Shown here: positions 17,788 through 53,100 of the stretch, piece by piece
Layout: each line of letters opens with the position of its first letter
Numbering within the stretch: the stretch's first letter is position 1
NCBI RefSeq assembly: GCF_024521635.1
Contig: NW_026250407.1
Location: 1,302,001-1,366,000, forward strand
Length of the DNA stretch: 64,000 nucleotides
Source of the DNA: Tricharina praecox
Taxonomy: Eukaryota
Reading direction: 5' to 3'
The notes under the pieces: model-generated
Databases searched by the model: none
What the model was told of the DNA's origin: nothing
Seen by the model: only the letters and a program-made list of their open reading frames with translations
Position numbers and translations under genes: made by a program

Positions 17788-17794
17788 TATAAAA
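17788..17794 (+). promoter_or_regulatory. TATA box of the protoglobin gene
   Basis: TATAAAA ~75 bp upstream of ATG 17868, followed by a CA-rich 5' UTR. Confidence 0.55.
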
Positions 17795-17867
17795 ATCCCA
17801 CGATACCTCACTACCGCCAGTGGTATATACTCCATTACTACAGACACATACACATACACACCTCACA

Positions 17868-18754
17868 ATGGGCAACCCGATAACGCACGTCCCGGCCTCA
17901 TCGCTCAGTTCCCTCTCCACGCGAATCTCGTACCTGCGCAGCTTCATCTCCTTCAGCGCCAGCGACGCCTCCGTCCTGCACTCTAGCGCCTCCGTAGTCG
18001 CACCCTTGATCCCCGTGATCGTCGACACGGTCTACGAGAAGCTGTTATCATTTGACATCACAGCGCAGTCATTCGTGCCGCGGCAGACAGGATACTCCGG
18101 CGAAGCCCCCACGTCGCTGGACGAGCTCACGCCGGAGCACCCACAGATTCGCTTCCGAAAGGATTTCCTCGCCGGGTACCTGAGAAAGCTGGTCACAATG
18201 GATTATGATAAGATCGAGAGCTGGGAGTACCTCGATAAGGTCGGCGTTATGCATACCGGCAGGGCCGGGTTCGCGCATCGGTTTGTCTCCCACCCCCCAC
18301 CCCCCACCCCCCACCCCCAGAAATAAGCTCGGAGACTGATGAGTGACTACAGCGCCAAAAAACCCGCTCTGAGAGTAGAACTCGTCCACTGCGCGCTGCT
18401 GCTGGGCTACGTCGAGGACATCCTTGTGGGCGCGGTGATGGGGCATCCGGACTTGGACAACGATACGAAAACGGTCCTGTTGCGCGCTGTCAACAAGGTT
18501 CGTCCCTCCCCCTCCCCCTCTTCTTCCCTTGTGCCTTCCCGATCTTGGCAGCTAATGCAGTGCAGCTCCTCTGGATCCAGAATGATCTCTTCGCGCGGCA
18601 CTACGTCGCTGATGCCGACGCGGCGGAGGAGGCAGAGGCCAAGAAGATTATGGGGCGTGATAGGGTCGCGCTGGCGGCTGTGGCGATAGGGCTGGTCGCC
18701 GCGGGGGCGGGATTGATGCATGTTCTGGGACCCGCCGTGTTGTGGCAGACGTAG
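17868..18754 (+). CDS. Protoglobin/globin-sensor-domain protein with C-terminal hydrophobic anchor; exons 17868-18280, 18353-18497, 18566-18754
   Basis: RISYLRSFISFS..D, VYEKLLSFDITA..F, YLDKVG.MHTG and KLLWIQNDLFARHY are typical of fungal protoglobins. Introns 18281-18352 and 18498-18565 are canonical and frame-consistent. Confidence 0.88.
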
Positions 18755-20488: not shown

Positions 20489-20755
20489 CTACTCCTCCTC
20501 AACCACTTCCTCGCCATAGCTCGCCTCGATATCATCCTCCTCCGTCGCCTTTCCCAAATTCTTCTCCTCCTCCATGCGCTCAGTCAGGTAAGCATTGACC
20601 CTATCCTGCAGCTGGGCGACGGCCTCGCGCACTGCGGCCAAATGCTTCGTGTCCGTGCCGTCGGCGGGCTCCGTCGCGATCGTGAACGTCTTGCTGTCCG
20701 AGGGCGCCGGGAGCGGCGATGCGTACACAGCTTCGATCTTGATGGGAGACGACAT
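20489..20755 (-). CDS. GON7: EKC/KEOPS complex subunit Gon7 (88 aa)
   Basis: A.Y.SP...KTF...HL..VR.AV..LQD.VNAYLTERMEE...E..YGEEVVEE matches the fungal Gon7 family. The real start is ATG 20755, inside the longer ORF. Confidence 0.88.
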   Translation of the reverse strand: MSSPIKIEAVYASPLPAPSDSKTFTIATEPADGTDTKHLAAVREAVAQLQDRVNAYLTERMEEEKNLGKATEEDDIEASYGEEVVEEE

Positions 20756-21228
20756 CGTAGGCAGTGCGCTTGGTTGGGTGTGGTGGGGGTGTGGTGGAAT
20801 GACGATGCTGGGTCGGTGGGGGGGGGTACTAATAGTTAGGTAGTGTAAAAATGAGGGCTTGGCACGAGTCACCACGCGTGCTTGAGCCTTGAGCCTTGAG
20901 CCTTGCGCGGTCGAGATTCGAGATTCGAAACCATCCATCCATCCCCACACCTGCACCGTCATCGATTCCCCAGTATATACAGTTACATCGTAATCATATC
21001 CACCAGCAATGTCCCATCAACCCCGCATGCGAACGAAAACAAACAAGGAAAAGAAGCTGTACTCGCCCGTAAAGTAATCATGTATCATCGATAAAAAAAC
21101 AAACCCGCAAAAGCAATCCGGCATAAGCAATCGTAAACATGCATGATATAACAAGCACGCAAAGTACGGTAAAGACAAAATGCTGTAGCACCTCCACATA
21201 AGACGAGACTCCTATATTACACCCCGCG

Positions 21229-24200
21229 TCAACTCGCCCTCTTCTTCGCACATCCGTAGTGCACCACCTGTCCACTATTCTTATGTCAGCACGCACGCGA
21301 ATGTATCGAGTGGCCGGGACAACTGACTTCGGCAACCTCCAGATAACACTCAGGCCCAAGCGCTTATGGCAGACAGGACACACGCTCTCCTCAGCCACAG
21401 TGGCATGGCTGTTTCTCGAACCCAACAGCCGCTCCTGCACATCGACGAGGTGGCTCTTCCTGAGCGCGGCGATGATCCTGTTCTCGGTGACCTTCGCATT
21501 TGCAGCGCGGATGCGGCTCTCGAAGTACGTCTCCAGATCGCGAATCCTAACATTCTCCGGGATGAGCTTCAACGCCTCACTCGCTTCCAGCCGAGCGCCG
21601 TGACGAGAGAGGATCGCAAGGGCAGGGCCCAATTGCTGACTGTAAGGCGCTGGAGGCCGTAAGTAAAGCGAGATGAGAATGTGGTAGACCTGGTCGACCT
21701 CTGCCGGGGCAATGTTGGCATTCTGGTGCACTCTCATGCAATACGCCTCGGCCTTGTCGTGGTCGTGAAGCTTGAAGACGTAGATCTCCAGTGCGGACTT
21801 GTGACGGCCCATCTTCGACAGCACGACAGCCCTGCACTCGTAGTATTCTGGAACGTCCCGTGGCAACGAACCGAGAACCTTCTCGGCACGGTACTGATCC
21901 GACGTCTCAAGGAACATAAGGAATCGGGCATGCCACTTGTCCTTCTCATCTTTCGTCATATCGCGGGCGAGCGCCGTGAGATATAGCCCGGCGAGTCGTG
22001 TGTGGAATTCCGGGGTCTGATCGTGTAACTCGGTGATGATGTGCTCAAGATACTGGATAGCGAAACTTTGATCCTGCTGCTCCAAGTAATCCAGCACTCG
22101 AGCCCGCGGCAGTGATTCCGAATTACCGGTATCGCCCACGAAGATCTCCATACCCAATACCGGATCGACCTTCAGAGGCCACATCGCAAACTCGAGAATA
22201 AGGTCGGTATGCTCCGCCTTCAGTCTCTCGAGATAGGTGACTGTCCTTTGGGGTCCACGGAGACTAGGCGCTTTACTATCCTCATCTGCTTGTCCAAAAA
22301 ACCTCAACAACTCCAATGCATCTCGATGAAGCTTCTTCCGCTCCAGAAAGTCGACCAGCTCTTCGAACTTCCCTTGCTCGCGCAGCTTTTCGCTCACGAC
22401 ATCCGGGTCGCAGTGGTTCTGGATCCTGACCAACGAGCCGATCAATGCCGGCCGCACGAGCATGTACGCTCTGAATAGAGTGGTGTCGACCAATTGGCAA
22501 GTCTCCATAAGTTTCTCGATGCGTGCCTGAGCCGGGTCCTGACCCTCACCAGGGTGGCCATCCAGTACCAGGAAGGTAGCCTCCAAAGGATCCTTCTTCG
22601 ATGCTTCGTGGGCAGATCCAGGGGCCAAGACGGCTAACGGATCAAGCGGTTGACCTTCCGAATTGAAGTACTTGGTCAACTTTCTCCGCACATCGTTGAG
22701 GAAGGTGCCGATCAAGTCTTGGGCCGCCTTCTTCAACTCGTCACCCTCAAGTGGCTTCGGTGTCTCATCAACATCAGCATCCTTCTTAGCAGCGAGACTA
22801 GCGCTATCGAGGATGGAGGCGTCGTCGGCGGCGACTCTTCGGCTGCCGAAAGAAAAGATGGAAGCGGTTTCTCCGTATTTTCTGTTGAACGCAATGTTCC
22901 TCATCGAGCCATAGGAGTCGACTGTCGGACTTCGTTTGATCTCGGGCGTCACAGAGCGTTCCTTTTCTGGCGTTGCATCTCCCGACGAATCCGTCTTCGT
23001 GTCCGCTTTGGTGCCAGGCGCCTCGCCGCTTTCTCCGTTCTCCTTCTTCGGATCGCTTTCCCCATTCGACTTGGGAGCATCCCCATCTTCCGGAGCGGTA
23101 TCGGTTTCACCGTTCTTGTTGGCATCTCCATTTTCCGGGGGCTGCTCCTCTTCGTCCCCATGATCCTCCCCATCCGATCCGCCCTCCTCCTGATCGGGCC
23201 AGATCGAGAGTTCACCCGCGATAGCGGGTGGAAAGAGCTTGATAACCCTTTCGGGTGGCGCCGAGCATGTACCAAACAGTGCCATACTCTCCTCGTATCT
23301 CTTCCGTCGAAACAGCTTCTCGGCCTTAAGCATCTGCACCTCCCGCAGCTTTTCGTCCTTGTTCTCCTTGAGCAGCACGCTTTCCAACGTCTCGATGAGC
23401 TGGATTGCTTCGTCCAACTGCTCGGCCTCCACCAGGTTGTCGATCTGTGTTTCGTAATTCGTCGATTCCATCCTCCACACCTGTGTAGGCGAAGCCACGA
23501 AAAACAGCTTGCCAGCGTGCTGGAGAGCGACATTCGGCGGCGGTACATGCAGCGTCGTGACAGTAGGTAGATTTATCGTCTGCAGCAACGTCCGAGTTGC
23601 CGGATTACGGACGCCAATCTGGTGCTTCGCCGCGTTGAGGGATATTAGGTAGGGATACGAATATGCGATGGCGTCTGGCGGCGTCGACCATCGTATGGGC
23701 GGGCGTTTGAGCGGTTTGCCGTCCGTGTCGATGAAAAGCGTAGATGCTACGACGATCCGTTTAGCCACGAAACCCCTCCCCCATGAGCGACGGGGACGGA
23801 TTGAGCGGTGGGTGAACTTACAGTCTTTCACCAGCAACAGCTCCTCCCCGGCCAATCGGGTACTAAGCGATTTCGAACCCCATCCTCCCATTCCCACATA
23901 GCTGGCCCAGCCTGCCGCGGCCGCCTTGTCATCGCCCGCTTTCGACGCCCCATTCGTCGCATCCGAAGGCACAATCTCCTCCACGTTTGCGGTGTCCACA
24001 TCGACAATGACGAACCCACTCGTCAACCCGACGACGATCTTATGACCACTCGCCCACGTCAAGCTGCGCACATTGCCTCCGAGCGTGACCTCCTTCCCCT
24101 CCTGAAACCCGCCATCAGCCCACGAATACATCAGGAGCTTCCTCCTAACGCCAATCGCGAGTTTCGAGACGATACTTGGGATCTGCGTATCAGGATCGCG

Positions 24201-24654
24201 CTCAACATTACTCGTGATAGCGAGCGTCGACGCGCCGCGCGCCTTCGCCAGCGTCTCCGTGAGCGTAAAGTCGTTCAGGTCGTGGATGTGCACGTTCGTG
24301 TCGGCGAGCGACACGAGGATCGCCGCCTCCTTGATGCATGCTAGCACCTCGATCTTGCGCCGCGAGAAGTTATCGACGGTCCGTAGCAGCTCCAGTGAGA
24401 CCTCCGGCGTGTCGGGCGAGATCACCCGGTACACTCGTAGCGCCCCCGTCGATAGCCCCAGGATCAGCTTGTCGCCTGTGATGAAGCAAGAGACGGTGTC
24501 AGCTCAGACTTGAGGGCGTGCGCGCGCACGAAATTGAGGGGGCGGGGATGAGGGGGAGGGGTGAGGAGGTACCGTAGGCAAGAAGCGAGTCGATCCGGGT
24601 GCGGTCCTTCGGCGGGAGCTCGAAGATGGAGTGGGCGCTGAAGGCGTTGAGCAT
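21229..24654 (-). CDS. VPS39: HOPS subunit Vps39/Vam6 (CNH + CHCR + C-terminal Zn finger); exons 24654-24573, 24475-23822, 23746-21328, 21274-21229
   Basis: MLNAF...IDSLLAYGDKLILGLSTG.LRVY N-terminus, VDTTLFRAYM, L..LG.H..AL.IYVF, CPVCHKRLG.SV...P.G.VVHYGC. Three canonical introns: 24476-24572, 23747-23821, 21275-21327. Confidence 0.93.
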
Positions 24655-31586: not shown

Positions 31587-34500
31587 CTAAACCTCAGTCT
31601 CGACATCGGGCTCCCTTCCTTTGAGCGAGACCTTTCCCTTCAATTTCCTCGCGCCGAACTTCGCCTCGTCCTTTGCGAACGCGATTGCGCGCATCGGCTT
31701 CCACTGCATGAGCCCGCGGTGGCGCCGGTGCATGTCCTTCTGGTTTGCGCGGTAGTTCTTGATCGCGGCGATGGGGCCGGAGGATTCCTTCCTGCCACTG
31801 CCGCTGCCGCCCGCGTGCGTTTCTAACGCGGTTGATGTAGGCGAGGTCGGGTCGTGGTACTGCGAGCTCGTCACGTGGTGGTACGAGTCGTCTGAATCCT
31901 CCTGGTCGCTGGGCGACGTCGAGGTATCGCTGTCGTCGGAGTCGTAGCTATACCGGTAGTTGTGGTGGTTCTCCTCGATGGGTCCTAGAGAGTGTTGAGG
32001 CTTGTTCTGAGGCTGAGATCCTCCTCCTCCGCCCTCCGTGAGCTCCTCGCGTGCTCGTTCAAACACCTGCCGCCAGTTCATGCCGTACTTGTCGGTGTAC
32101 AACTTCTCGTCGCCCTCTTCGAGCAAGCCCTTTTCGGTCTTTGCCAGATCCTTGCGCATCTCGCGCACACTCTTCTTGTGCAGCTCGTCGACCACGGGGT
32201 TCGTCTCTGTGTAGACGGTGTCGCCGCGGATGCCCTCTCCGCGGCAGGCAGCCCAGGTCTCAAACGTCTCGCGGGAGTCGTTGTCGGTAGCGAAGCGGTC
32301 GTGGTCGCGGTCCATTCCCGGCTGGAAGCGCGCCTCGAAGGTCATGGTGCCGATCTCCTTGACGTCGAGTTCCGGGTGCTCATCGGGCCGCTCAATGTAG
32401 TTCTGCGTCAGCCGCTGCGGGTTGTTCGTGCTCCAGATGGGAATTGTGATGGTCGTGCGCTCGTTGTCCACCAGCTTGTCGAGCCAGACCATCGCGTGGC
32501 AGTTGGGCTTGCGCGAGTTCGAGGATGTGTAGATGTCGATCACGACGGGACTCATATACCGATGCTTCACTGGCAGGCGCAGCTTTCGCGGCTGCTTGGT
32601 GCCCACGGAAGTGCTCCATGTCATGCCGGACTCGGACGATGTGCAGCTCTTGCGTGGGATCTTGCCCGTCGAGCCGCCCGTCCTGAACTTCAGCTTGGCA
32701 GGCTTATCGAGTGTCGACGTGATCGTTTCACCCACAAACTCAAACGTGCCGACATCCCAACCGAGAAGCTGAGGAGGGAGTGATATCTCCAAGCTGCGGA
32801 AAAGCACAGATAAGCGGATCTGACCGAAACCGAGGCCGCCGTCAAGAGGGAACCATCGAGTGACTTCACTGCTGGTTTGGAGGATATCGGAAAGCTTCAA
32901 TGGTACCACCCCCAGGAGCGGGTCGTGCTCCCGTTGACGTTGATCCCGTACCGAAACGGTGACGATAGCCGAGCGCCAATCGCGCACAAAACGCTCCGTT
33001 CCAGCGGAGAATTGAGGCTTGCTGCTCAGAGCCTTTGTTCTTGTTCGGTAGATCAACTGGTCATTGAGCGTGACAGTGCAGTAGGCGCTAGGCAGCTTTC
33101 CACCCTCTTCCTGCTTATTCTCGCCAGTCTTCATGCCGGGGGAATACTCCTTGCCATCCTTGCGGTTGCCATACGTTCCCGTCATGTCTTTGACCTCCAG
33201 GTTCACAATCTGGTGGACAATTACACTGACGATTCCGGATGGGAAGAGAGGGTCTGGAGGTGTGTGCATGACTGCATCCTCAAGAGGAGTATCGATACTG
33301 CCCTTGTCGTCCTGCAGCTCGGGATGGTCTTTGAGCTGAGGAGGAAGGTTGACATCCTTTCCACTCGTACGCAGTGCTGGTCTGAACCTCGTCCTGCCGA
33401 AGAATCCAACTGACCAGTACAGCTCGCCGGGCATTGCTGAACCCGACTCCTGTCCAGTGAGCTTTGAAACTTGTTGGTGCATCTTTCCTGGCTCCAGCAT
33501 GAGGTCCTGAATGGGGACTTCGATCTTTCCGACCATGTCGTCGGCCGTGAATCTGTCGCTATCCCAAAGCTCGATCGACAGTGACTCTCCCGCCTTAATG
33601 TGCTCGCTGCGAATTAGAATGCCGGAAGACTCGTGCCATTGAGGATTGAGATCATCGACGATGACACGTGTAGAGTACATGGGCTTCCCGTACTTCGAGA
33701 ATGCAATGGTGATCTATCGCACAACGTTAGTATAGGCATGATCACGTCACCAACGGAAAACTTGCATATGCATCACTGCTTCCACGTCTATCCTGCTTGC
33801 TGAGCCCGATAGCCTTGTCGATGTTGATCCAGAGGATGCCAAGTGCTTCGGTTTCCTTCTTGACATCATCGCCCATGAGCATCTTGCCCAATTCCAAGCT
33901 CATACTCTTTGGTGCAACGTACTATCCATTGGTCAGCATTGGCCCGAGTCGGGAGGAGCCGAAGGACTCACTTCATTCGCTGCTGTTGCAATTGATGCAT
34001 TAACAAAATTGGAGATCATCGGGAGGTCCAAGATATTGATTCCTTTCTCCATCATCGGGATGCAGGCCACGGAAACTTTCGGGATACCCATAAGGGTGAA
34101 AGTGAGGGTCTTCAAGAATGGCGAGTCCGGAGATAGCTGGAGACGGAGGCGAACGGTGCCGATCAGGCCCTTTAGCTCCACCCAGATTGCTGTTTTCAGC
34201 GGTCAGCGACTGCGGACATATGAAATCGTCCATAGATTTGACACATACGTAATGGCACTCCAAACAGCCCCTTGATACCAGCATAGAAGACAATCTGCAT
34301 GTGCATGTTGCGCGTTTTCCCAGAGACACCCTTGGACTCCGAGGGAGCAGCATTATAAGCAAAGGCAACCTCAAGATTGTACACTTCACCGCCGTCCTCT
34401 TCGGCCTTTCTCTGTGATTCATCTTTGCCATCCCTGGCAACTGTAGCCGCTTTCTTCAATTCTGGAACTTCGGAATCTGGCAGCGCTCTCAAAGACAGAA

Positions 34501-35703: not shown

Positions 35704-36918
35704 TGCGGCGCAGTTATCTTCGCAAAGATCAGTAAGTGAACACCTACTGCGTCCGAGGAAAAACGAAGGAGTTTTGTTGTTTGAATTGTTGTATGGAAGT
35801 TGCTCTCGGCGAGCGTGACGTAGGCCAAGCCAGGACGCTCCTCTACTCTAAATTGAGTGCGACCAACTCTACATCATGGTGACGGAGTAGCCGTTCGGTG
35901 CAAGAAAATATCGAACGGCCAAGATCAGGGATTTCCCTCAGACGGCCCAGAGGATTTGCAGCAACCCGGATCTCAACACGGGAGAGTACGCGGCAAGGCC
36001 ACTTCACGACGTCTCACGCTTGCCGCAGGCTGCAGCACCGAGTTCCTGGCTCCGATGATTTTCGAAAGTTGGTTTAGCGAGATTGCGACGGATGAGCCAA
36101 ACTCTGGCACGTGCGGGATCAGAGTCGCGAACGGTACTCTGGAGTAAAGTATCCTGTCTGCCACCGATACCGGTATTCTTGGACTCGTCTAACTGTCCTG
36201 TTGTCTGTGGCCAGGAACTGGAGTACAGTACAGTCACCAAACTCACCACAGCAAACGTCCGCTCGGCGATAAGATCCGATCATAAGATTTGCATCTATAT
36301 ACCGCGCGCGAAAGTTCGAACCCAGGTTTTCGCACATGGCGGGAACGTAAGTTACGTAACTAGTGTACTGGAAATAGTCGAGCGGCCTAGTTGCGCTAAG
36401 CTGCCAGCTCCAACTTTCAAGTGTCCCAGCTTGCAGCTCGCAGCCTCGTTTGAGGGACGGCTAAAGTTTTCGAACAAGGCTTCCCCGCACCCCTACTATA
36501 GGAGCATGGAGTCTGCCTGGATGTTCAGCAGTAGAGTGCGTACATAATTTTGCGAAGAGCCTTCAGCTATCTGGATATTTTCGAGTTGGCCACCCAACGC
36601 AAATGCCCGCTTCAACTGGCTTCAGACGGCCTCGAGCCTGCTAAAATCGTACCGTGCCAGACTTCGATAGAGACAAGACAGGAATTCATTCACATGTTCG
36701 GTAGATCATAAGCTCCAGCACTTGAGTAAGCACACCGAGTCACCGAGTATTTCCTCGTGAGCGCAAATAGATGATGTAACACACGCCGGCAAACTCGGTT
36801 GCACGGCTCCCCGCGGCCTCGGCATAGCTTTTTCCTCGAAGCTACCCCGCCACCAACCCCCACCGTCGTCGTCAAAGCTTCATTTCCTATGGTTATCTGC
36901 TCCACCACCAGCCCAACC

Positions 36919-37971
36919 ATGACGCGCCCACTGCCCCTCGTTCGAACGCTCTCGTACCCCGCGCCGTCCCGTCTGTCGCGCCCACGACGACACCTACGAT
37001 CGTTCACATCGCTGCCACGGTTCTCTGGCACCTCAGTCCGCATCGTCGAAGTCGGCGCGCGCGACGGGCTGCAAAACGAAAAAACCACTGTCCCACTCGA
37101 AACCAAGCTCGAGCTGCTCTCGCGCCTGAGCAAGACCGGGCTACGGCACATCGAAGCGGGCAGTTTCGTCTCTCCCAAATGGGTACCGCAGATGGCGAAC
37201 ACGTCCGCGATCCTGTCGCACCTCGAGGCCACGAAGGACGCGGAGCCGCGGCACCACGACATCACGTACTCGTACCTCGTCCCGAACGAGAAGGGCCTCG
37301 CCGGCTTCCTGCACGAAAAGCCCACGCCCGGCACCGGCAACGAGATCGCCGTGTTCGCGTCTGCGTCCGAGGGCTTCTCGCAGAAGAACCTCAACTGCTC
37401 CATCGCCGAGTCGCTGCAGCGCTTCGTCCCCGTCGTTGAAAAGGCGCTGAAGAGCGGCTTCCGCGTGCGCGGCTACGTCAGCATGGTCATTGCGTGTCCG
37501 TACTCCGGTCATACGCCGCCAGAGGCCGTCGCCGGCGTCACCCAGAAGCTGCTGGATATGGGCTGCTATGAGGTCTCGCTCGGCGATACGAATGGCGTCG
37601 GCACCCCTGGCACCGTCGCGAAGCTGCTGCGCTGTCTGATCAATGAGAGGTGCATTCCCGCCGAGAAGCTGGCCGCACACTTCCATGATACCTACGGCCA
37701 GGCGATCGTCAATTCGCTGGTCGCCCTCGAGCACGGCATCAGGACGTTCGATTCTAGTGTGGGCGGGCTGGGTGGTTGTCCGTATGCTGCGGGCGCCACC
37801 GGAAACGTCGCAACTGAGGACCTGGTGTACTTCTTGGAGGGCACGGGCGTGCACACCGGCGTGGACCTGGAGCAGCTGGCGAGCGTCGGCGAGTGGGTGA
37901 GCAAAGTGCTGGGAAGGCGCAATGGAAGTAGAGTCGGCAGGGCACTGGCGGGCAAGAGGAGTGTGATGTAG
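36919..37971 (+). CDS. HMGCL: Hydroxymethylglutaryl-CoA lyase, probably mitochondrial, intronless
   Basis: VEVGARDGLQNE, IEAGSFVSPKWVPQMA, GCYEVSLGDT.G, HFHDTYGQA, GLGGCPYA.GATGNVATED; Arg/Ser-rich presequence. Confidence 0.95.
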   Translation: MTRPLPLVRTLSYPAPSRLSRPRRHLRSFTSLPRFSGTSVRIVEVGARDGLQNEKTTVPLETKLELLSRLSKTGLRHIEAGSFVSPKWVPQMANTSAILSHLEATKDAEPRHHDITYSYLVPNEKGLAGFLHEKPTPGTGNEIAVFASASEGFSQKNLNCSIAESLQRFVPVVEKALKSGFRVRGYVSMVIACPYSGHTPPEAVAGVTQKLLDMGCYEVSLGDTNGVGTPGTVAKLLRCLINERCIPAEKLAAHFHDTYGQAIVNSLVALEHGIRTFDSSVGGLGGCPYAAGATGNVATEDLVYFLEGTGVHTGVDLEQLASVGEWVSKVLGRRNGSRVGRALAGKRSVM

Positions 37972-44600: not shown

Positions 44601-47490
44601 TCTACACGGATATACATATTTAGGTATGGCGAAATTGAAGACGTTGACCGCGTCGATCACCAGCGAATCGATCTGATCGCACGGCCGACCTCGCGGACCG
44701 TGACGGAGTCAATCCTCAGCCCTTGCGGGGACGCTGAACGTACCGCAGTTCAGCTTCGGTTCGTCTCGCCTCGCCTCGTCTCTTCTCGTGGAACGTATGT
44801 GCTCCAAGATCTGACAACGTTACGCCGCGAGGCTGAGCCTCCGATCAAGGCCTTACTTTCTTCATTCTTCGTCCTTCTCCTCCTTCAATGCGACATGCGC
44901 AAGTGTGCGGCAAAAAAAAACACATCCTCTATGTAGTTATTGGCGGAGGCCTGGGAGTATGTAGAATACCTGAATCCTGGGGTAAGATCGTCGAAACACG
45001 GAAACGACCAATCAGCAACGAAAGCATAAATGAGGCTGAGGCCGCCCGTATCAAACGTATTAAACGGAGGGACGGAAATAGAATGTCACCCGATCCCCCT
45101 CGTAACCATCGTGGTGCTAGTAGAGTGAGCAGAGTGCTCTAGCTAAGGTCGAAGGTAGGTCGAAGGTCGAAGGGTGCAGCCATCATCCTGCTTCCATGGG
45201 CTCGCATGGAGAGTATGTAACGATTCGACTCGAATCTGGAAGCACTCTACTACTATTCTGTTAGATGGTAGATGGCAGAGTTTCTCGATCCATAAACCTA
45301 GTCCAATCGCTTCAAACGGGGGGTAGCTTTGCGTTCAACTTTTATGTACCTTCACCATCGTCGTCACCATTATCATCAACGTCGTCAAGAAGACGCCAAC
45401 TTACGCCGACATCGTGCCAGCTCAGCATCCGCATCCGCATTGGCATCGGCATCGACCACCTTGGCAGCAGCAGCACTCGCTGTACTCTACATATCTATGT
45501 GTCGAACATTCACGTCCGTCCGGAACGGAGTGGCGCGTTTCGCAGGATGGAGATTGCGATGGACTGTGGTTAGTTACAGTTGGGGTGTCACCGTGTCGGT
45601 TCCGAGTTCTGCCCAGTGTCTGGGCGTGCTTGGCTATACACCCTAACTAACTAACGGAACGGATGGAGAGGGAGGGAGGGAGGGAGGGAGAGCGAAAAGG
45701 GATCCGGGGAAGTTGGGCTTACCTGGATATGCCCCGACCGTGCGGAGGCTCCAAGTTCCCATCATATGCTACCTACTCCACATAGACACCCGTGGGTTGG
45801 TGAGTGGGTGGGTGGGTTGGTAGGGTATCGCTGGATGGACTGGGAACCGTACTCTACTATTGCTACTTCCGCCGAGATGGAGTCGGGGCGACGCTGGAAG
45901 AAGACAGGAACGAGATCTCCGGCCTCCGGGTAATAGGTGACTAGATATGCTTCCTATTCTGTGCAGCGCTGTTCCCACATGCTGGTCTAATCGACTAACC
46001 TAGAGCCGATGACTCCATACATCACTATATCGCGTGCAGCCGTCGTCTCGAAGGAGTCGATAGATCCAAACGCTTCTCCCATATAGAGCACCTCCTGGTC
46101 ATAGCTACTAGTAGCATAGAGCTCTCGGTACATCCTCCATCATGGTGCCTACTGGCAGCTGGCACACTGGTGACTGCGGCCTCAAATGGGTAGCGTGGGA
46201 GGGCTGAAGTCTCTGCGCCAATCCGCGTCGTGTGTAGCGCCGTCACCTTCCCTCCTTTGGTGCGCCCAACCACGCCTGATTGGGGCGGGACGAGGGCTTG
46301 CCGTTCGTTCCACGTTTCGAAATGTCCAATCCAGGGAGAGGAGGGGGGGCGGCGCCAGGCTTACCGCATCGAGAAACGAACAAGACTTTGACATTGCTTT
46401 TCGCTCAGGCCTACTCCTGAGCGAGGTTCGGGGACAAGGCCAAGCCAGTGAGCGAGGCAGAGAGGCAGAGAGAGAGAGAGACAGACAGAGAGAGAGAGAG
46501 AGAAAGAGAATCAGCCTGTTGTTGTTATTGTTGTTGATGTTGATGTTGATGATGTTGTTGATGTTGTTGCTCGTGTTGCTCGTGTTGTTGTTGCAAGGGC
46601 CAAGCCCAAGCCCGCAAACGAGACCAGACCAGAAGAGCCGAACAGAGGACCACAGAGATCTCAGCACCACACGAGTGACCCCCAGATGTGTCTCGGGCTG
46701 TGTGTTCTCCGCGAAGGGCCACGCGGGACTCGGATGCCCGTGATGCTCGCAAACGGGCGAACGAGCGGAGTCGCCAGGGACATCACGAACGCTGAGCGTC
46801 GACATCTCCGGCCTCCGGCCTCCAGCCACGCTCGTCCTCCTGCGGATTCCCGCCCACACGCACCCTCGCACCCTCGCACGCGCGCTGCCATGGCTCCGGT
46901 GCCGACGTTGCTTCACATCCGTATTGCCGCTCCCCAGGCAAGGCCTCCCTCTGATCGGGTGATCCATGATGCCCATTGAGCTGGCGGCGACAGGCCAGGC
47001 GCAGCTGTTGGTCCCTGGTGGTGATTGAAAGCTTAGCATTCGTGCCACCCAGCCAATAATCAAGGCAACCATCCCCCCCTCCCCCACCCAGGGCGGATGA
47101 CGGCGGTTGTGAGGATATCTCTTCCGGCGTAGCGTGATTGGGCCATGCACCCTGAAGGAGCGAGGGAGCGAGGGAAGGTGGGTGAGAGGGAGGGAGGGAG
47201 GGATGGAGGGATGCTTTTTCGGGAACGAGCGTAAAGGCCCTGGGGAGCGCGGTTTCGCTGAAGCGATCCTACCACCCTGCTGCAAATATAAGTGGGCCGC
47301 GCCCTCCCCCTCTTCCTGAATATTCAACACCGCAGCTTCATCGGATTCCTGGGTTCACTCGTTATCCCCAAGATCCTCCGAGTTCTTTCTTACCAACTAA
47401 AAAACTAATTCAACTTTCGAGCCCTTTCGTTTTTTGTCACGACCTTTTTACTTCGATAGTCATTCCTTCCCTTCGAGGCGTTTAGCGGTC

Positions 47491-50172
47491 ATGAAGTTCT
47501 CAACTTTCGTGGCAGTGGCCACCTCGGCCGCGGTCACGCTTTTTTCAGCCGGTGCCGAAGCTCAGCAACCAGTCAGCGGCTTCTACCCCGTCCGTGGACC
47601 CATCGTCTACGACAACCGCGTTGTGCGGCGATTGCCGCTGCAGTACATGGCCAGCGACCGGCCGGATATCTACAACATGTTTGTGTTGGCATTGGTAAGG
47701 ATATTCCCTCCCCATCCCGGTCTCGATCTCGGTTTCGGAATTGGACTCGGAATCGGGTGTCGGGCGCGCTCCATCGAACCGTACTAATTACCCTGCGGAA
47801 TATAGACAGATATGCAGAGCAATAAGCAGGAGACCGATCCCCTCTCCTACTACCAGATCTCTGGTATTCACGGTGTGCCTTTTGTTCCTTGGCAGGAGAC
47901 TTCCGTGGCCACGCAGGACGATTCCACTGGATACTGCACGCACACTTCAGTGCTTTTCGCCACTTGGCACAGACCTTTCCTTGCCCTGTTCGAGGAGCGT
48001 CTCCTCAAGCATGCCATCTACGTTGCGTCCAAGTTCACCGGTAGCTCCGCTGCACGGTACCAGGCCGCGGCCAGGAACGTCCGTCTGCCGTACTGGGACT
48101 GGGCCGCCGCCGACCTCCAGTCGCGCATGCCGCCGCAGCTCACCGCCACCAGTGTGACCGTCGTCCGCCCCGGTACCGGTGGTGTCCCCCAGACCGTCAG
48201 CATTGCCAACCCGCTCCGCGAGTACCGATTTACCAACGCCAACCTCCGCGCCGAGTGGATGGGCGACGGTGACTTCGGTCTGACCGACCGCACCCGCCGT
48301 CAGCCTCCCGTGAACATGGCATCCAGCAACAATGCCGCCGTCGACGTCGCCATGAACGAGGGTTTCACCTCGCGCAGGAACGCCGTCTTCGCCCTGTTCA
48401 CCATCCCCAGCTTCAGCGACTTCTCCGGAACCCAGTTGAACACCAACGGAAGCCCCAACGCCTGGAACTCGGTCGAGTCCATCCACAACAGCATCCACGT
48501 TCACATTGGTGGCCAGCGCGGTCACATGACGGCCGTTGCTTACTCTGCCGTAAGTCCCTTTTTCCGGGAGGAACGGATTTTTTATATTAACGGATTTGTG
48601 TAGTTTGACCCCATCTTCTGGCTGCACCACTGCAACGTCGATCGTCTGATCGCCATGTACCAGGCTGTCAACCCCGGTAGAGTCGTCGAGTCCCGCCCTG
48701 CTGCTGGCACTTTCCACAGACGTGTCGCCGACGGTAGCACCCTCATGGATACCATTGACACTCCCCTCGCGCCTTTCCGCAAGACCACCGGTACCTACTA
48801 CACCTCCCGTGATGTCTCGTCCGCCGACTCGATCTGGAACTTCGGATACTCGTACAGCGAGGTCCCCGACTCCTTCCGTGGTAACCCCACCGGTCTGCGT
48901 TCGTTCACCAGCTCCGAGATCAACCGTCTCTACAGCTCCGGCTCCACCAGCGCCAAGCGTGCCAACGAGCACACCCGCCGCGAGTGGATCTGCCACATGA
49001 CGTACGATATCGGCGAGCTCAAGGACTCTTCCATGATCAAGGTTTACTTCGACAAGCCCCCGTCCACCAACGGCACCTACGTTTCGCCAGTTGGCACCGC
49101 CATGCCTCCTAAGTCGACTGGCACCCCCGGCTCGTACGGCAACAGCACCTACGAGGGCCCCATCAGCCACGATGCCCACTTCGTCGGTTCCACCGCCTCG
49201 CTCAAGGACCCCAAGCACACCATGACCATGAACACCGCCGGTGCCGTCTACCTGAGCGATGCCCTGCTCGAGGCCGGATGCAAGTCGCTGAGCCCCGAGG
49301 ATGTCGTTCCTTTCCTCAAGGAGAGGCTGAGGTGGGTTGTCTCTATTGGAGGCCACACCGAGGTTCCCCTCAAGGAGCTGCCCTCGCTCAAGGTAGGTAT
49401 CTCGTCCGCCGAGGTTGAGTACCCCGAGGACGAGACCATGCTCCCCACCGTCGGAGAGTTCTTGACCCATTACGATGTCACCGAGCACAAGAAGTGCGGT
49501 TTCACCCTTGCAGACGAGGACCTCGTCGACTCGACCCCGGCCAAGCCCATCGCCGATGCCGTCGTCTCGCTCCTCCCCACCTACATCCGCCCCAAGCCTA
49601 CGTTCGTGCCTGAGGTCCCGACCTACCCCATCTACACTCCCGAGCCCACCTACGCGCCTGAGGAGCCCGTCGAGGAGCCCACTTCCGTCCCGACCTACGA
49701 GGAGCCCACTTCCGTCCCGACCTACGAGGAGCCCACTTCCGCTCCCGTCTACGAGGTGCCTACTTCCGTTCCTACCTACGAGGAGGCCACTTCCGTCCCG
49801 GTGTACGAGGCGCCCACCTCCGTCCCGACCTACGACGAGCCGACTTCCGTCCCGGCGTACGAGGCGCCCACCTCCGTCCCGACCTACGAGGAGCCGACTT
49901 CCGTCCCGGTGTACGAGGCGCCCGCGCCCAGCGTTCCCGTGTACGAGGAGCCCAAGACGTCCGCCACAGTCGGCGTCCCCGTCTACGGCGAGCCCGCGAC
50001 CACCTACGCGCCGGTCCCGGTCCCTACGTCGACCAAGGTCTACAACGGCGTGACCACCGTCGTCGTCAAGAGCTACACCACTGTCTGCCCGGCCACGTGT
50101 GAAATGCCCGTCACCACGGCCTTCACCTCCATCTACCCCGATGAGCCCCTGCCCACCTACAGTGTGTACTAA
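47491..50172 (+). CDS. Secreted tyrosinase (type-3 copper) with C-terminal domain and Tyr-rich repeat tail (~838 aa); exons 47491-47694, 47806-48549, 48604-50172
   Basis: Signal peptide. CuA: ISGIHG.P, YCTH...F.TWHRP. CuB: ES.HN.IH..IGG, FDPIFWLHHCNVDR. Also RLPYWDWA and the GYSY motif. Introns 47695-47805 and 48550-48603 are canonical. TATA near 47287. Confidence 0.95.
49675..49947 (+). repeat. Coding minisatellite, 27-bp unit encoding xPTSVP(T/V)YE, 9 copies plus one 10-aa variant
   Basis: EPTSVPTYE EPTSVPTYE EPTSAPVYE VPTSVPTYE EATSVPVYE APTSVPTYD EPTSVPAYE APTSVPTYE EPTSVPVYE APAPSVPVYE. Confidence 0.95.
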
Positions 50173-53100
50173 ATGTCTCCGCGCGTCTGTCTCACGAAAC
50201 GAAAAAGGCTTTTTTTTAGAAGGGATAAAGCAAGCAGAGAGGGGGAAATGGGGACTTAACAGTAATACCTAATCGCCGCCGCATTTTGGAATCGTTTATT
50301 TTCTTTTTCTTTTCATATCTTTTCGCCTTTTCCTTTCTTGTTCAGTCATTCATTTATCGGAGGTGTGTGTGTGAGTTTTATTTCATCCACGTTTTTTTGG
50401 ACAAAAGGGGATGATCTAGGTATGATGTCTATGGAGACGGGAAGAGGGGGGGGGAAATGGTTGAGTGTGGAGGTGAGGGGGATGTGGTTTTGGTTCTCTT
50501 CCAAGTATCTATTGAAATTCCATTATGTCTGTTTTGTCCCTTCATCGTCGCATATCATCATCGCACTGCATTGCACTGCATCTCTTGCATCTTTGTGCAT
50601 ACTTGCATCTTACACCTTACATACCACTAACTGTAGACCATATCACGCTCATCTGCGACTTTCTTTCCGCTTCCACTTCTGTTTTATATTTTGTTTTTGA
50701 TTTTTTCCGGTGACGTTTGAGTTGAGTTGCGTTGAGCGAGCCATATGATTTCCCCCTATTTCCCTTCAGGGGCCAGGGCCAGGACCGGTGCAGGGGCCGG
50801 GGTGGTTCAGGCACCAAACCGAGCAAGCGTTGCAACTCGCAAGCGAAGCGAGGATGGAGAGCACCCCCTTAACTAAGAAATAAAGAAGGAAAGAAGGGTC
50901 TGCACTTGCACATCAGATATTTGAGTAGCCTGGGACTGCGACTGGGGCCGGGACTGGGACTGGGAGTCGAGGAGGGGAGGAGGGGAGGCTAAGCGATAAT
51001 TGTTAATTGAGGCTGTGCTGAATTCAATTTTCACGTCATTTCGGCGGTCGCAGCTTGCTCCTTCCTGCTGCAGGTACGGAATGGAGGGTGGAAGGGCTGC
51101 AGCCTTGCTTCTGAATTCAGGCACCCCCTTCTCCCTTCTTCCTTCTTTTCCATCCCCTGTCGAGGGGGCCTGTGGTGTTTGGCTTGTGCTGGTGGGTGGT
51201 GCTGGTGGGTGTGCACTGTGGGTGTGTGAGACTTGAGTGGTGTGTGTGGTGTGCGTGATGTGTGTGTGTGTGAGGAAGTCATTACCGAGCCGTAAGACAT
51301 CGTCATCTCTCTTCTCTCTCTTTTTCTCTCTCTCTCTCGCTTTCTGTCTGTCTCGCCGCTGCACTTTGCGGTTTTGCTTTTGTTGTAGGGCCGTGTGGAT
51401 TGGTGTGGATGATGATCGGATGATCGACGAGGTGATTGGTGGTGATTGGAGCGGTAGATGCACCATGCATACATTCTTATGACTTACTTCTTACTTGGTT
51501 GCTCTAGACTCTAGAGTATTCCTTGGTATGCAGTACGATACTTATGCTGAGCGGTGCGCAAAAGGAAGCAAATGTTGAATTCTACATGAGTAAGTACCGG
51601 TAGGCACTGGATCCGTATACGAGAGGGAATGAGTTGGTGGCTTCTGGGTTGGTGGCTTCTGGGTTGGTGGCTTTTGGGGAGGGAGAGCAACGACGCATGG
51701 CCGCGCTGATACATGATAGGTAGAGTACTACATACATTCACATCATACCGGTAACTCCCGTACCTCCCGTACCGTATGTAGCTGAAATGAGCTCGTGTGT
51801 TGGAAGGGGGGCTGGACAGGTACCTGCATATCCTTATGCACCGTTGCGATCCGTGTCGCCGTGTCGCCGTGTTGCCGTGTCGCCGTGTCGCCGTGTTGTC
51901 GTGCATATCGTATCATATACCGTATGTACCGTATGTACCGTATGTACCGTATGTACCATGATTACTTGGGTATCATACGAAGAATATACCGTAGTCTAAA
52001 TATCTACATATCCAGAGGGCCGCGACATTCGTTTCATTGTTTCATTGTGTGCATCGCGAACGAAGCCACCCCACAGAAAGCAGCAAGCAGAGAGCAGCAA
52101 ACAGAAAACACAACAGCCAAGCACGATAGCCAAGCAACGTAGGTACTCGTCATATATGCACCGATTTCATCGTGTACACGCACTGCTCACTTACGTACGT
52201 ACTCCATGCATACATACGTGGGGCGGCAGGCGGTGGGCGGCCGTCCTGCTTGCTTCCTATCGATAAATATATGTACTCCAGGCATCTGCCGCTCTGGAAG
52301 CAGCATCGACTATCCCCCGCTCCCCCATACCCATCCCCGTCCCCGCAAAAGCGGTCGCGTTCCTGGAAACATAGCGACATAAGATAGGGGTATCAACAAC
52401 GGGGGGGGGCACGGACATTCGGGCCGGTGCTACTGTTGCTGCTGTTGCGACGACCTTGCAACCTTGCGACCCAGTCAGTTGTCTAGAGTACTCTATGTAA
52501 TCAGGCAATCGGACTAACGCATGTACATTGTGCGTTGTGCAGCTGTAACTATGCTTGCTTGTATGCTTGCTTGCATGCTTGCTTGCTTCCTTCCTTCCTT
52601 CCTTCCAGGCACCGTGTCATGCCATAACGGATGCTGTCAAGAGTCGAGACGATGTTTCCCGCCCTCTCCCTCGCGCCTCCCCCCCCCCCCCCCCCGGGGT
52701 GAAACGCGCACGCGCGCGGGCGGCGGAGTGCGGCGGAGTGCGGCGGCGGCGGGCACACGTATGATACTATGGAGAAGAGCATATATTACCAAGTACCTAG
52801 AGTGACTTCCTTCCCAGATGCCCATGACGGTACCCATCTATCCATCTCCCCTCCCCTGCAATGTGCATGCGAAGCTGACGGTTTTACGTACTACATAGTA
52901 TGTACCCAGTACTTGGGTGCAGCACTTCAGTCTTCAGCCGCAATCGGCACGGGTGCTTGCAAGTTGCTTGCAAGTTGCTTCACTTATGAGTTGTGCGGCG
53001 TGCGCATCACTCGTGGGTGATGCGTCGGTATGTATAGATGTACGCTGGGTGGCTGAGGACGGCGTGGTGCAGTTCGCCGTGCTCTGACGTCGGCGCGTCA

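What the first reader, a model, noticed from the sequence alone, without database searches (positions are those of the whole stretch)
47491..50172. Secreted tyrosinase carrying its own putative substrate: a periodic Tyr/Pro/Thr/Glu repeat tail
Seen: an intact dicopper tyrosinase, a dibasic KR site (SAKR) before the C-terminal domain, then ~200 aa with a Tyr every 9 residues (xPTSVP[T/V]YE x10, Tyr invariant). It ends in a TTVVVKSYTTVCP motif and PTYSVY, with no GPI signal. Known: tyrosinases convert peptidyl Tyr to DOPA/quinone that cross-links (mussel adhesive, egg-shell and cuticle proteins), Kex2 cleaves after KR, and T-rich YTTxCP motifs occur in fungal wall proteins. Inference: a one-gene enzyme + structural-substrate system in which processing activates the enzyme, which then cross-links or tans the extensin-like tail into wall, ascoma rind or adhesive.
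Basis: partly seen in the sequence, partly recalled or inferred. Interest (0 to 1): 0.72.

Follow-up and report, generated by a model that had tools for sequence, protein, structure and literature searches.

The report
Secreted tyrosinase with tyrosine-rich tail
A soil cup-fungus gene encodes a secreted pigment-forming enzyme (tyrosinase) with a floppy tail carrying regularly spaced tyrosines, but in relatives the conserved part is a small end-piece like those of cell-wall proteins, so the tail more likely tethers the protein than serves as its built-in substrate.

Summary
A three-exon gene (47491-50172, +) encodes an 838-aa pro-tyrosinase, and RNA contigs from two runs confirm both introns. 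It has a signal-peptide-like N-terminus, a dicopper domain (PF00264) and a lid domain (PF18132). The dibasic KR434-435 sits in a flexible loop. A 218-aa disordered tail follows, with 21 Tyr.

Strict 9-residue periodicity covers only nine units (residues 673-753; 27-nt repeat, 9.4 copies).

The built-in-substrate reading is only partly supported.
- KR/RR is conserved in 19 of 20 homologues. It lies 3-4 residues past the position aligned to the activation cut of Agaricus PPO4. Cleavage would leave the tail on the lid fragment, not on the enzyme.
- Across 17 orthologues (a Pezizales clade, 100/100 support) the linker varies from 30 to 219 aa and from 0 to 12.2% Tyr. Two have no linker Tyr.
- The last ~45 aa (a T/V-rich YTTVCP Cys-pair module) is kept in all 17, about as well as the lid.
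- Similar periodic P-x-Y-E-E-P repeats occur in unrelated proteins without a tyrosinase domain.

Best reading: a wall-mannoprotein-like stalk plus retention module, with a young, lineage-specific Tyr-rich expansion. It may be oxidised, but that is not shown. This is a new variant of a known kind.

The parts
47491..50172 (+). Whole coding region of the pro-tyrosinase gene: 3 exons (47491-47694, 47806-48549, 48604-50172 including the stop), 838 aa
   Evidence: Sequence and translation. Both splice joints are seen in RNA-type contigs of X3 and X4, and intron 1 also in X7.
47491..47562 (+). Signal-peptide-like N-terminus (residues 1-24: Lys2, a hydrophobic core, A-E-A before QQ)
   Evidence: Read from the translation. 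The same kind of N-terminus is in the full-length orthologues P0004, P0006, P0007 and P0011. No signal-peptide predictor was available, so this is an inference.
47695..47805 (+). Intron 1 (111 nt, GT..AG)
   Evidence: Skipped in contigs of X3, X4 and X7.
47842..48666 (+). Tyrosinase central (dicopper) domain, interrupted by intron 2 (48550-48603)
   Evidence: PF00264: E 3.6e-30 on exon-2 aa 13-248 and E 4.8e-07 on exon-3 aa 1-21. Best solved relative is A. bisporus PPO4 4OUA, E 7e-27. His motifs were located.
48550..48603 (+). Intron 2 (54 nt, GT..AG)
   Evidence: Skipped in contigs of X3 and X4.
48955..48960 (+). Dibasic K434-R435 (within SAKR), the putative Kex2-type activation site in the linker between the catalytic and lid domains
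   Evidence: KR/RR stands at this place in 19 of 20 homologues. The loop has pLDDT below 50 (exon-3 aa 114-121; P0007 residues 429-432). Exon-3 aa 1-115 align to PPO4 chain residues 274-382, and active PPO4 ends at Ser383 (PMC4157443). Cleavage itself is inferred.
48982..49401 (+). Tyrosinase C-terminal (lid) domain
   Evidence: PF18132, E 8e-15. It folds confidently in AF2. Foldseek's best matches are latent abPPO4 (5M6B, 4OUA_B; E about 5e-09) and A. oryzae pro-tyrosinase.
49534..50040 (+). Pro/Thr/Val/Glu/Tyr-rich linker (residues 627-795, 169 aa, 16 Tyr), predicted disordered
   Evidence: Composition. pLDDT is below 50 over almost the whole stretch. Only 54% identical to the closest orthologue P0001, against 82% for the lid.
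49672..49914 (+). Nine in-register 9-aa units (consensus E-E-P-T-S-V-P-T-Y), the strictly periodic Tyr array
50041..50169 (+). Conserved terminal module (residues 796-838): a T/V-rich strand region, YTTVCP, a second Cys four residues on, TTAFTSIYP, and a P-x-Y-x-V-Y end
   Evidence: Found in all 17 orthologues. 84% identical to P0001 and 58% to P0007, about the same as the lid. In a profile search of 1.84 billion representatives, the only convincing hits were tyrosinase-lid proteins.

Best explanation
This is a secreted latent tyrosinase of a Pezizales (Pyronemataceae-like) soil fungus.

The architecture is well supported: signal peptide, dicopper catalytic domain, flexible linker with a conserved dibasic site, lid domain, a disordered Pro/Thr/Glu/Tyr stalk, and a conserved ~45-residue Thr/Val/Cys/Tyr end module.

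The function below is inferred.
1. A Kex2-type protease cuts at KR in the secretory pathway. This is the same place where other fungal tyrosinases are activated.
2. The C-terminal extension behaves like the C-terminal part of a fungal wall mannoprotein. It has a probably O-mannosylated extended stalk and a Cys-pair module of the YTTxCP type.
3. The extension keeps the zymogen, or the lid-plus-tail fragment, at the cell wall or extracellular matrix.
4. The strictly periodic tyrosines come from a young tandem amplification of one P-x-Y-containing unit. This happened in one sub-lineage and is not the conserved feature.

The exposed PxY tyrosines are chemically plausible targets of the enzyme. Their oxidation may add covalent fixation to wall proteins or chitosan. 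I rate that as an auxiliary or opportunistic effect rather than the reason the tail exists.
For: Architecture:
- Pfam domains.
- Solved relatives PPO4 and MelB pro-tyrosinase.
- Splicing confirmed by RNA contigs.

Dibasic site:
- 19 of 20 homologues keep KR/RR there, including 3 of 4 tailless paralogues.
- The loop has low confidence in both AF2 models.
- It aligns with the PPO4 activation cut.

Conservation of the extension:
- The 17 module-bearing proteins form one clade (100/100), separate from 4 tailless paralogues.
- The module occurs in 16 of the 58 tyrosinase-type database proteins retrieved, plus the window's protein.
- Module identity tracks lid identity: 84 vs 82% for P0001, 58 vs 56% for P0007. 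The linker does not: 54% and 11%.
- Linker length runs from 30 to 219 aa and Tyr content from 0 to 12.2%.

Tail properties:
- The tail is predicted disordered.
- A very similar T/V-rich YTTYCP motif followed by further Cys stands in the GPI wall protein Pga31p of C. albicans (sequence printed in PMC9017365).
- Periodic PxYEEP repeats also occur as spacers in unrelated proteins P0051 (LRR domains) and P0065 (zinc-ribbon domains).

Context:
- No functionally related neighbouring genes were found within the window.
Against: - No experiment or localisation data exist.
- The module matched no known family (Pfam). Its profile found no wall protein at E<=0.001. The resemblance to wall-protein motifs therefore rests on a short motif.
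- The module did not fold or dock with confidence in AF2: pLDDT 40-64 in P0007 and below 55 in the window protein.
- There is no GPI signal, so the mode of retention is unknown.
- If KR is cut, the tether would hold the lid fragment and not the active enzyme.
- Tyr looks non-random. 85 of 105 linker Tyr across the orthologues sit in P-x-Y, and Phe/Trp are almost absent (WIN 16 Y vs 1 F, 0 W; P0001 25 vs 0; P0014 20 vs 0). Tyr-rich linkers co-occur with Lys (P0001), His+Lys (P0014) or Cys (P0003/5/6). All of this fits a cross-linking role better than a plain spacer.
Confidence: 0.45

Rival explanations
1. One reading: an enzyme plus built-in structural substrate. Kex2 cleavage yields active tyrosinase and, in equal amounts, a lid-plus-tail protein. 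The tail's exposed PxY tyrosines are turned into DOPA/quinone and cross-linked into wall, fruit-body rind or adhesive. This would be a fungal counterpart of mussel-foot or eggshell protein tanning, and a selected function at least in the Tyr-rich sub-clade.
For: - The tail is disordered and exposed, which is the condition under which tyrosinases act on peptidyl Tyr. The abstract of PMC4064347 says steric availability of tyrosyl side chains limits cross-linking and that a Tyr tag enables it (search listing). Passages of PMC4033337 describe tyrosinase-catalysed grafting of gelatin, sericin, casein peptides and silk onto chitosan.
- Tyr reaches 9-12% in the window protein, P0001, P0002 and P0014, and 6-7% in P0008 and P0058.
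- 85 of 105 linker Tyr are P-x-Y, and Phe/Trp are nearly absent.
- Differently built repeats are also Tyr-rich: P0014 has a ~25-aa His/Lys/Tyr unit and P0001 has Lys-Pro-Thr-Tyr units.
- Tyr of 4.5% or more is confined to one 11-row clade.
Against: - Nine of 17 orthologues have 3.3% linker Tyr or less, and two have none (P0012, P0013). The long Pyronema linker (144 aa) is Ala/Pro/Lys/Glu-rich with 3 Tyr.
- In the nine units Thr, Ser and Pro are as invariant as Tyr, as expected for a young array. Tyr invariance there is therefore not evidence of selection.
- Similar periodic PxYEEP repeats occur in proteins with no tyrosinase domain.
- The window's repeat has no Lys, His or Cys partner residues inside the array.
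- No chemical evidence exists.
Confidence: 0.25
2. A plain propeptide or spacer. The extension only assists folding, secretion or latency of the zymogen. It is discarded with the lid after cleavage, and the repeats are neutral low-complexity expansion.
For: - Linker length and composition vary widely, from 30 to 219 aa.
- The tail is disordered.
- Fungal lid domains are removed on activation (PMC4157443 passages).
- Tailless secreted paralogues exist in the same fungi: P0016, P0018 and P0020.
Against: The terminal module is kept in all 17 orthologues at about the same identity as the folded lid. That argues for a specific function beyond spacing.
Confidence: 0.15
3. A tethered copper-loading arm. 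The Cys pair of the terminal module replaces the CXXC 'copper grappler' loop that the lid domains of cytosolic fungal tyrosinases (abPPO4, A. oryzae MelB) carry.
For: - PMC4157443 passages describe a conserved CXXC motif on a disordered loop of the lid, proposed to load copper.
- The window's lid has no CXXC (sequence).
- The module has two close Cys (CX1-6C) in 16 of 17 orthologues (module column; P0002 has one Cys in the module and another just upstream), sometimes with a nearby Met.
Against: - The tailless secreted paralogues P0015, P0016, P0018 and P0020 have neither a CXXC in the lid nor the module, so secreted enzymes of this group can evidently do without one.
- The spacing between the Cys varies.
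- The module did not dock in the AF2 models.
Confidence: 0.07
4. A RiPP-type precursor. The repeats would be core peptides of a Kex2-processed repeat protein, modified by the fused tyrosinase, as in ustiloxin-type pathways.
For: Kex2-processed repeat precursors and tyrosinase-dependent fungal RiPPs are known (search listing and abstracts of PMC7329392 and PMC6514808).
Against: - There is no Lys or Arg between residues 648 and 766, so no dibasic sites separate the units.
- No methyltransferase, DUF3328-type or other cluster genes were detected nearby.
Confidence: 0.02

Closest known systems
Agaricus bisporus PPO4 latent/active tyrosinase (PDB 4OUA, 5M6B)
   Same: - Dicopper domain plus a C-terminal lid domain.
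- Best sequence match (E 7e-27) and best fold match.
- Activation cut in the solvent-exposed loop after the tyrosine motif, at the position where the window protein has KR.
   Different: - PPO4 has no signal peptide (recalled).
- PPO4 carries a CXXC loop in the lid that the window protein lacks.
- PPO4's C-tail is a short, putatively membrane-oriented stretch, not a Pro/Thr/Tyr repeat plus Cys module.
Trichoderma reesei TYR2, the secreted, C-terminally processed tyrosinase
   Same: A secreted fungal tyrosinase whose C-terminal domain is removed. This is known to me only from the title cited in the reference list of PMC6238066 and from recall.
   Different: No repeat tail or YTTVCP module is known to me for TYR2. 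I did not fetch or compare its sequence here.
Fungal GPI wall mannoproteins with T/V-rich YTTYCP Cys motifs (C. albicans Pga31p; S. cerevisiae Sed1p by recall)
   Same: - A Ser/Thr/Pro-rich stalk.
- A T/V-rich strand followed by YTT-x-CP and further Cys (Pga31p sequence in PMC9017365).
   Different: - The window protein has no GPI signal.
- The module profile found no such protein at E<=0.001, so homology is not shown.
- Here the motif is fused to an enzyme's lid domain.
DOPA-based structural proteins tanned by tyrosinase (mussel foot protein 1, trematode eggshell proteins)
   Same: Disordered, Pro-rich short tandem repeats with one or two Tyr per unit. The orthologue P0001 adds Lys next to Pro-Thr-Tyr. 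The comparison with those proteins is recalled, not computed.
   Different: - In those systems enzyme and substrate are separate genes.
- The window's repeat is acidic and lacks Lys.
- No DOPA evidence exists.
Streptomyces tyrosinase caddie protein (MelC1/ORF378)
   Same: A partner polypeptide that puts a Tyr into the tyrosinase active site (mentioned in PMC4157443 passages).
   Different: The caddie is a separate small folded protein that serves copper loading. There is no sequence or fold link to the tail.

Membership tests
Type-3 copper tyrosinase (Pfam PF00264) | Profile match above the gathering score | tested here: met
   106.4 bits on exon 2 and 30.8 bits on the start of exon 3, against a cut-off of 22.6.
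Type-3 copper tyrosinase (Pfam PF00264) | Six copper-ligand histidines (CuA x3, CuB x3) | tested here: met
   Motifs GIHG, YCTH and TWHR (CuA), and SIHNSIH and WLHHC (CuB) were located. They align to the corresponding PPO4 and hemocyanin motifs.
Fungal tyrosinase | Cys two residues before the second CuA His (thioether-forming Cys-x-His) | tested here: met
   YCTH at 111-114, aligned to the gyCTH of PPO4. The covalent bond itself cannot be tested here.
Latent pro-tyrosinase with a C-terminal lid (PF18132) | Tyrosinase_C domain after the tyrosine motif and linker | tested here: met
   PF18132 at E 8e-15, 56 bits against a cut-off of 26.9. GYSY stands at 397-400. The fold matches latent abPPO4 and MelB pro-tyrosinase.
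Latent pro-tyrosinase with a C-terminal lid (PF18132) | CXXC copper-incorporation motif in the lid (described for abPPO4 and aoTYR) | tested here: not met
   The lid (residues ~443-626) holds three isolated Cys (445, 542, 614) and no CXXC. The motif is described in PMC4157443.
Secreted, Kex2-processed protein | N-terminal signal peptide | tested here: inconclusive
   The N-terminus has the classical shape and is shared by full-length orthologues. No predictor was available.
Secreted, Kex2-processed protein | Accessible, conserved Lys-Arg site; cleavage after it | tested here: inconclusive
   The site is conserved in 19 of 20 homologues and lies in low-pLDDT loops. Cleavage itself cannot be tested with these tools.
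GPI-anchored fungal wall protein | C-terminal hydrophobic GPI attachment signal | tested here: not met
   The protein ends ...IYPDEPLPTYSVY, with no hydrophobic stretch. Read by eye.
Kex2-processed repeat protein / RiPP precursor | Dibasic sites flanking each repeat unit | tested here: not met
   No Lys or Arg between residues 648 and 766.
Extensin-type Tyr cross-linked wall protein | Ser-Pro(3-5) blocks and Tyr-x-Tyr cross-link motifs; Pfam extensin repeats | tested here: not met
   No extensin family was reported by Pfam at E<=1 on exon 3. No SPPP run occurs in the tail.
DOPA-containing adhesive or tanned protein | Tyr converted to DOPA or cross-links in the mature protein | not testable with these tools
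   This needs mass spectrometry or staining of native protein.

The most novel reading that the evidence does not exclude
In the Tyr-rich sub-clade (the window protein, P0001, P0002, P0014, P0008/P0058), one gene makes a two-component tanning or adhesive system.
1. Kex2 cleavage at the conserved KR releases active tyrosinase.
2. It also releases an equimolar lid-stalk-module protein.
3. The stalk's PxY tyrosines all lie on one face of an extended stalk, because a 9-residue period equals three polyproline-II turns (my inference).
4. These tyrosines are oxidised to DOPA/quinone and grafted to wall chitosan or protein.

This would be a fungal convergence on mussel-foot-protein chemistry, with enzyme and substrate encoded as one polyprotein.
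Probability: 0.22. Interest if true: 0.8.

Novelty: new variant of a known kind. Interest (0 to 1): 0.5.

Why it matters
Fungal tyrosinases are mostly studied as cytosolic or free secreted enzymes. Here a whole orthologue group in Pezizales carries a conserved wall-protein-like end module on the lid domain. In some lineages the stalk in front of it is unusually Tyr-rich.

If the extension tethers the zymogen, it would explain how an extracellular phenol oxidase is kept at the hyphal surface, for melanisation or for handling phenolics. For context, tyrosinase genes of Pyronema domesticum are reported as enriched among genes upregulated on burned or pyrolysed substrates (PMC8579045 passage).

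If the Tyr-rich stalk is a real substrate, this would be the first single-gene enzyme-plus-substrate tanning system that my searches found. Full-text searches turned up no report of a fungal tyrosinase with such a tail. These searches cover only the held open-access library.

Tried and rejected
- Complex prediction (P0007 catalytic domain against its terminal module) could not be run. No verdict exists.
- The window's whole genome is not held, so I could not look for paralogues or stand-alone repeat proteins in the same organism.
- A word-index search with the module scored only 7 candidates and returned only P0001 and P0009.
- The module profile against 1.84 billion representatives gave 8 hits at E<=0.001. 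Four are tyrosinase-lid proteins. The other four (P0060-P0063) are unrelated repeat proteins that I judged spurious after reading them.
- The ESM Atlas gave only weak leads. The tail scored 0.78 to a 'putative extracellular serine-threonine rich protein' cluster. The module scored 0.79 to a 'putative Lustrin A' ascomycete cluster. Both are below the level where the tool calls a hit more than a lead.
- AF2 did not place the module with confidence.
- Earlier-findings look-ups returned nothing relevant.
- The literature searches for Tuber/ascomata tyrosinase and for Tyr-rich wall cross-linking in fungi gave nothing specific.
- Contig depths were not used to rank expression, as the tool advises.
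- RiPP-precursor and GPI-anchor readings were considered and rejected (see rivals and membership tests).
Full report
**What is there**

The region holds one gene on the + strand with three exons: 47491-47694, 47806-48549 and 48604-50172. The two introns are GT..AG and 111 and 54 nt long. The product is 838 aa.

RNA-type contigs of two runs (X3, a 2080-nt record; X4, a 2086-nt record) join both exon pairs at these sites. A soil metatranscriptome contig (X7) joins the first pair. Overlapping pieces cover the tail to 50300 without any further joint. The gene model, including an uninterrupted tail in frame, is therefore confirmed.

A 773-codon open frame on the opposite strand (47947..50268) is best read as a by-product of the GC-rich coding strand. 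The splice signals are on +.

**Enzyme part**

- Pfam finds Tyrosinase PF00264 on exon 2 (E 3.6e-30) and the first 21 aa of exon 3 (E 4.8e-07). It finds Tyrosinase_C PF18132 on exon-3 aa 127-266 (E 8e-15).
- All copper-ligand motifs are present: GIHG 88-91, YCTH 111-114, TWHR 121-124, SIHNSIH 293-299, WLHHC 322-326. The tyrosine motif GYSY is at 397-400.
- The closest solved protein is Agaricus bisporus PPO4 (4OUA, E 7e-27).
- The AF2 model of exon 3 matches latent abPPO4 and A. oryzae pro-tyrosinase best.
- The N-terminus looks like a signal peptide. I read this by eye, and it is shared by the full-length orthologues.

**The KR site**

- SAKR is at 432-435.
- Exon-3 residues 1-115 align to PPO4 chain residues 274-382. 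Active PPO4 ends after Ser383 on a solvent-exposed loop (PMC4157443, passages read). KR434-435 therefore lies 3-4 residues past the homologous activation point.
- KR (RR in P0058) stands at this place in 19 of the 20 homologues that hold the stretch. Only P0020 lacks it.
- The loop has pLDDT below 50 in both AF2 models (P0007 residues 429-432; exon-3 residues 114-121).
- Kex2-type activation is thus a well-founded inference. It also means the tail stays on the lid fragment, not on the active enzyme.

**The tail**

- Residues 621-838 contain 21 Tyr (9.6%, against 4.2% upstream).
- Nine in-register 9-aa units (consensus E-E-P-T-S-V-P-T-Y) occupy residues 673-753, window 49672-49914. Thr4, Ser5, Pro7 and Tyr9 are invariant.
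- TRF reports a 27-nt period with 9.4 copies at 80% match, and a 54-nt period with 4.7 copies at 88% match.
- None of 100000 shuffles reached the observed run of equal Tyr spacings.
- The periodicity is real, but it is the signature of a young tandem array and covers about 85 aa, not 200.
- AF2 gives pLDDT below 50 over almost the whole tail.

**Relatives**

The nearest named relatives are Pyronemataceae (Pezizales): Sphaerosporella brunnea, Wilcoxina mikolae and Pyronema domesticum. The best hit, P0001, is 70% identical over exon 3. The DNA itself is held by soil metagenome runs.

I examined 58 tyrosinase-type database proteins. These were 56 of the 57 hits (P0051 is an LRR protein) plus P0058 and P0059. 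A local profile search found the terminal module in 16 of them, plus the window protein.

On a lid-domain tree these 17 form one clade (100/100), apart from four tailless paralogues. The rows used were the 17 plus P0015, P0016, P0018 and P0020. The more distant hits were left out.

Within the 17 (one search gave the same figures except P0006, whose module it failed to cut):

| Feature | Result |
|---|---|
| Linker length | 30 to 219 aa |
| Linker Tyr | 0 to 12.2% |
| Tyr-rich linkers | P0001 12.2, WIN 9.5, P0002 9.2, P0014 9.1, P0008 7.0, P0058 6.2 |
| Intermediate | P0004 5.1, P0010 4.5 |
| Tyr-poor linkers | P0005 3.3, P0059 3.3, P0003 3.0, P0006 2.9, P0007 2.9, P0009 2.4, P0011 2.1, P0012 0, P0013 0 |

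The two early-branching groups (P0011/7/9 and P0013/59/12) are all Tyr-poor.

The module is as conserved as the lid, and the linker is not:

| Compared with | Lid identity | Module identity | Linker identity |
|---|---|---|---|
| P0001 | 82% | 84% | 54% |
| P0007 | 56% | 58% | 11% |

The feature under selection across the group is therefore the end module. Tyr-richness is a derived, lineage-specific property of the stalk.

**What speaks for a role of Tyr nevertheless**

- 85 of the 105 linker Tyr in the 17 proteins stand in P-x-Y. The conserved C-terminus itself ends P-x-Y-x-V-Y.
- Phe and Trp are almost absent from the linkers.
- Differently built repeats are also Tyr-rich. Examples are Lys-Pro-Thr-Tyr units in P0001 and a ~25-aa His/Lys/Tyr unit in P0014.
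- Tyrosinases are known to oxidise exposed peptidyl Tyr and to graft proteins to chitosan in vitro (PMC4064347 abstract; PMC4033337 passages).

**What speaks against Tyr being there because of the enzyme**

- Similar periodic acidic Pro-x-Tyr repeats occur in P0051, with LRR domains and units like PTEEPVYE. They also occur in P0065, with zinc-ribbon domains and units like VPTYEEPVAE. Neither carries a tyrosinase domain.

**The module**

- It matches no Pfam family.
- Its profile finds only these tyrosinases convincingly among 1.84 billion representatives.
- It does not fold or dock confidently in AF2.
- It resembles, at motif level only, the T/V-rich YTTYCP-plus-Cys stretch of the C. albicans GPI wall protein Pga31p (sequence printed in PMC9017365).
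- It has a Cys pair in 16 of 17 orthologues. The lid lacks the CXXC copper-loading loop described for abPPO4 and aoTYR. That leaves open a low-probability copper-arm reading. However, the tailless secreted paralogues lack both features.

**Context**

The window otherwise carries unrelated genes: Vps39, Gon7, protoglobin, annexin-like, C2/Mug190-like, a CCCH zinc finger and HMGL-like. No biosynthetic cluster lies around the tyrosinase.

**Verdict**

I favour (0.45) a secreted, Kex2-site-bearing pro-tyrosinase whose lid carries a wall-mannoprotein-like stalk and retention module. In this reading the periodic Tyr array is a recent, lineage-specific expansion.

The self-substrate reading keeps about 0.25. 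It is worth a direct MS test.

Noticed in passing
window 47947-50268, minus strand: A 773-codon stop-free frame runs antisense to the tyrosinase gene. It has no Pfam support and the splice signals are on +, so it is probably a by-product of GC-rich third codon positions.
   Followed up: partly
P0014 (580 aa, metagenome-derived orthologue): Its tail is built from a ~25-aa repeat rich in His, Lys, Tyr, Gly and Pro (20 Tyr, 15 His, 13 Lys in 219 aa). This is a different unit from the window's and looks like a second, independent Tyr-rich expansion.
   Followed up: partly
P0051 and P0065 (unrelated proteins found with the tail as query): Long arrays of 8- to 10-aa acidic Pro-x-Tyr repeats sit in an LRR-domain protein and in a zinc-ribbon protein. 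The second also carries a precomputed Pfam extensin-repeat label (PF02095). This suggests a recurrent spacer type.
   Followed up: partly
window ~46200-47100 and ~50870-51480: Simple-sequence tracts flank the gene. Translations of the flanking frames show runs such as poly-Asn/Ile and His-Thr repeats, so microsatellite-like DNA lies in both intergenic regions.
   Followed up: no
window 21081-24503 (-), 17793-18323 (+), 20492-21016 (-), 31590-33713 (-), 36775-37968 (+): Other genes in the window by Pfam: Vps39-like (CNH, Vps39_1, zf-Vps39_C), protoglobin, Gon7, a C2/Mug190-type protein and an HMGL-like enzyme. None relates to the tyrosinase.
   Followed up: partly
window 47400-50300 in public runs: The stretch is held almost entirely by soil metagenome runs and partly by soil metatranscriptomes of the same study. 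Two small RNA-type runs of coded organisms A and B hold it at about 0.9 of words, so cultured near-identical isolates probably exist.
   Followed up: partly
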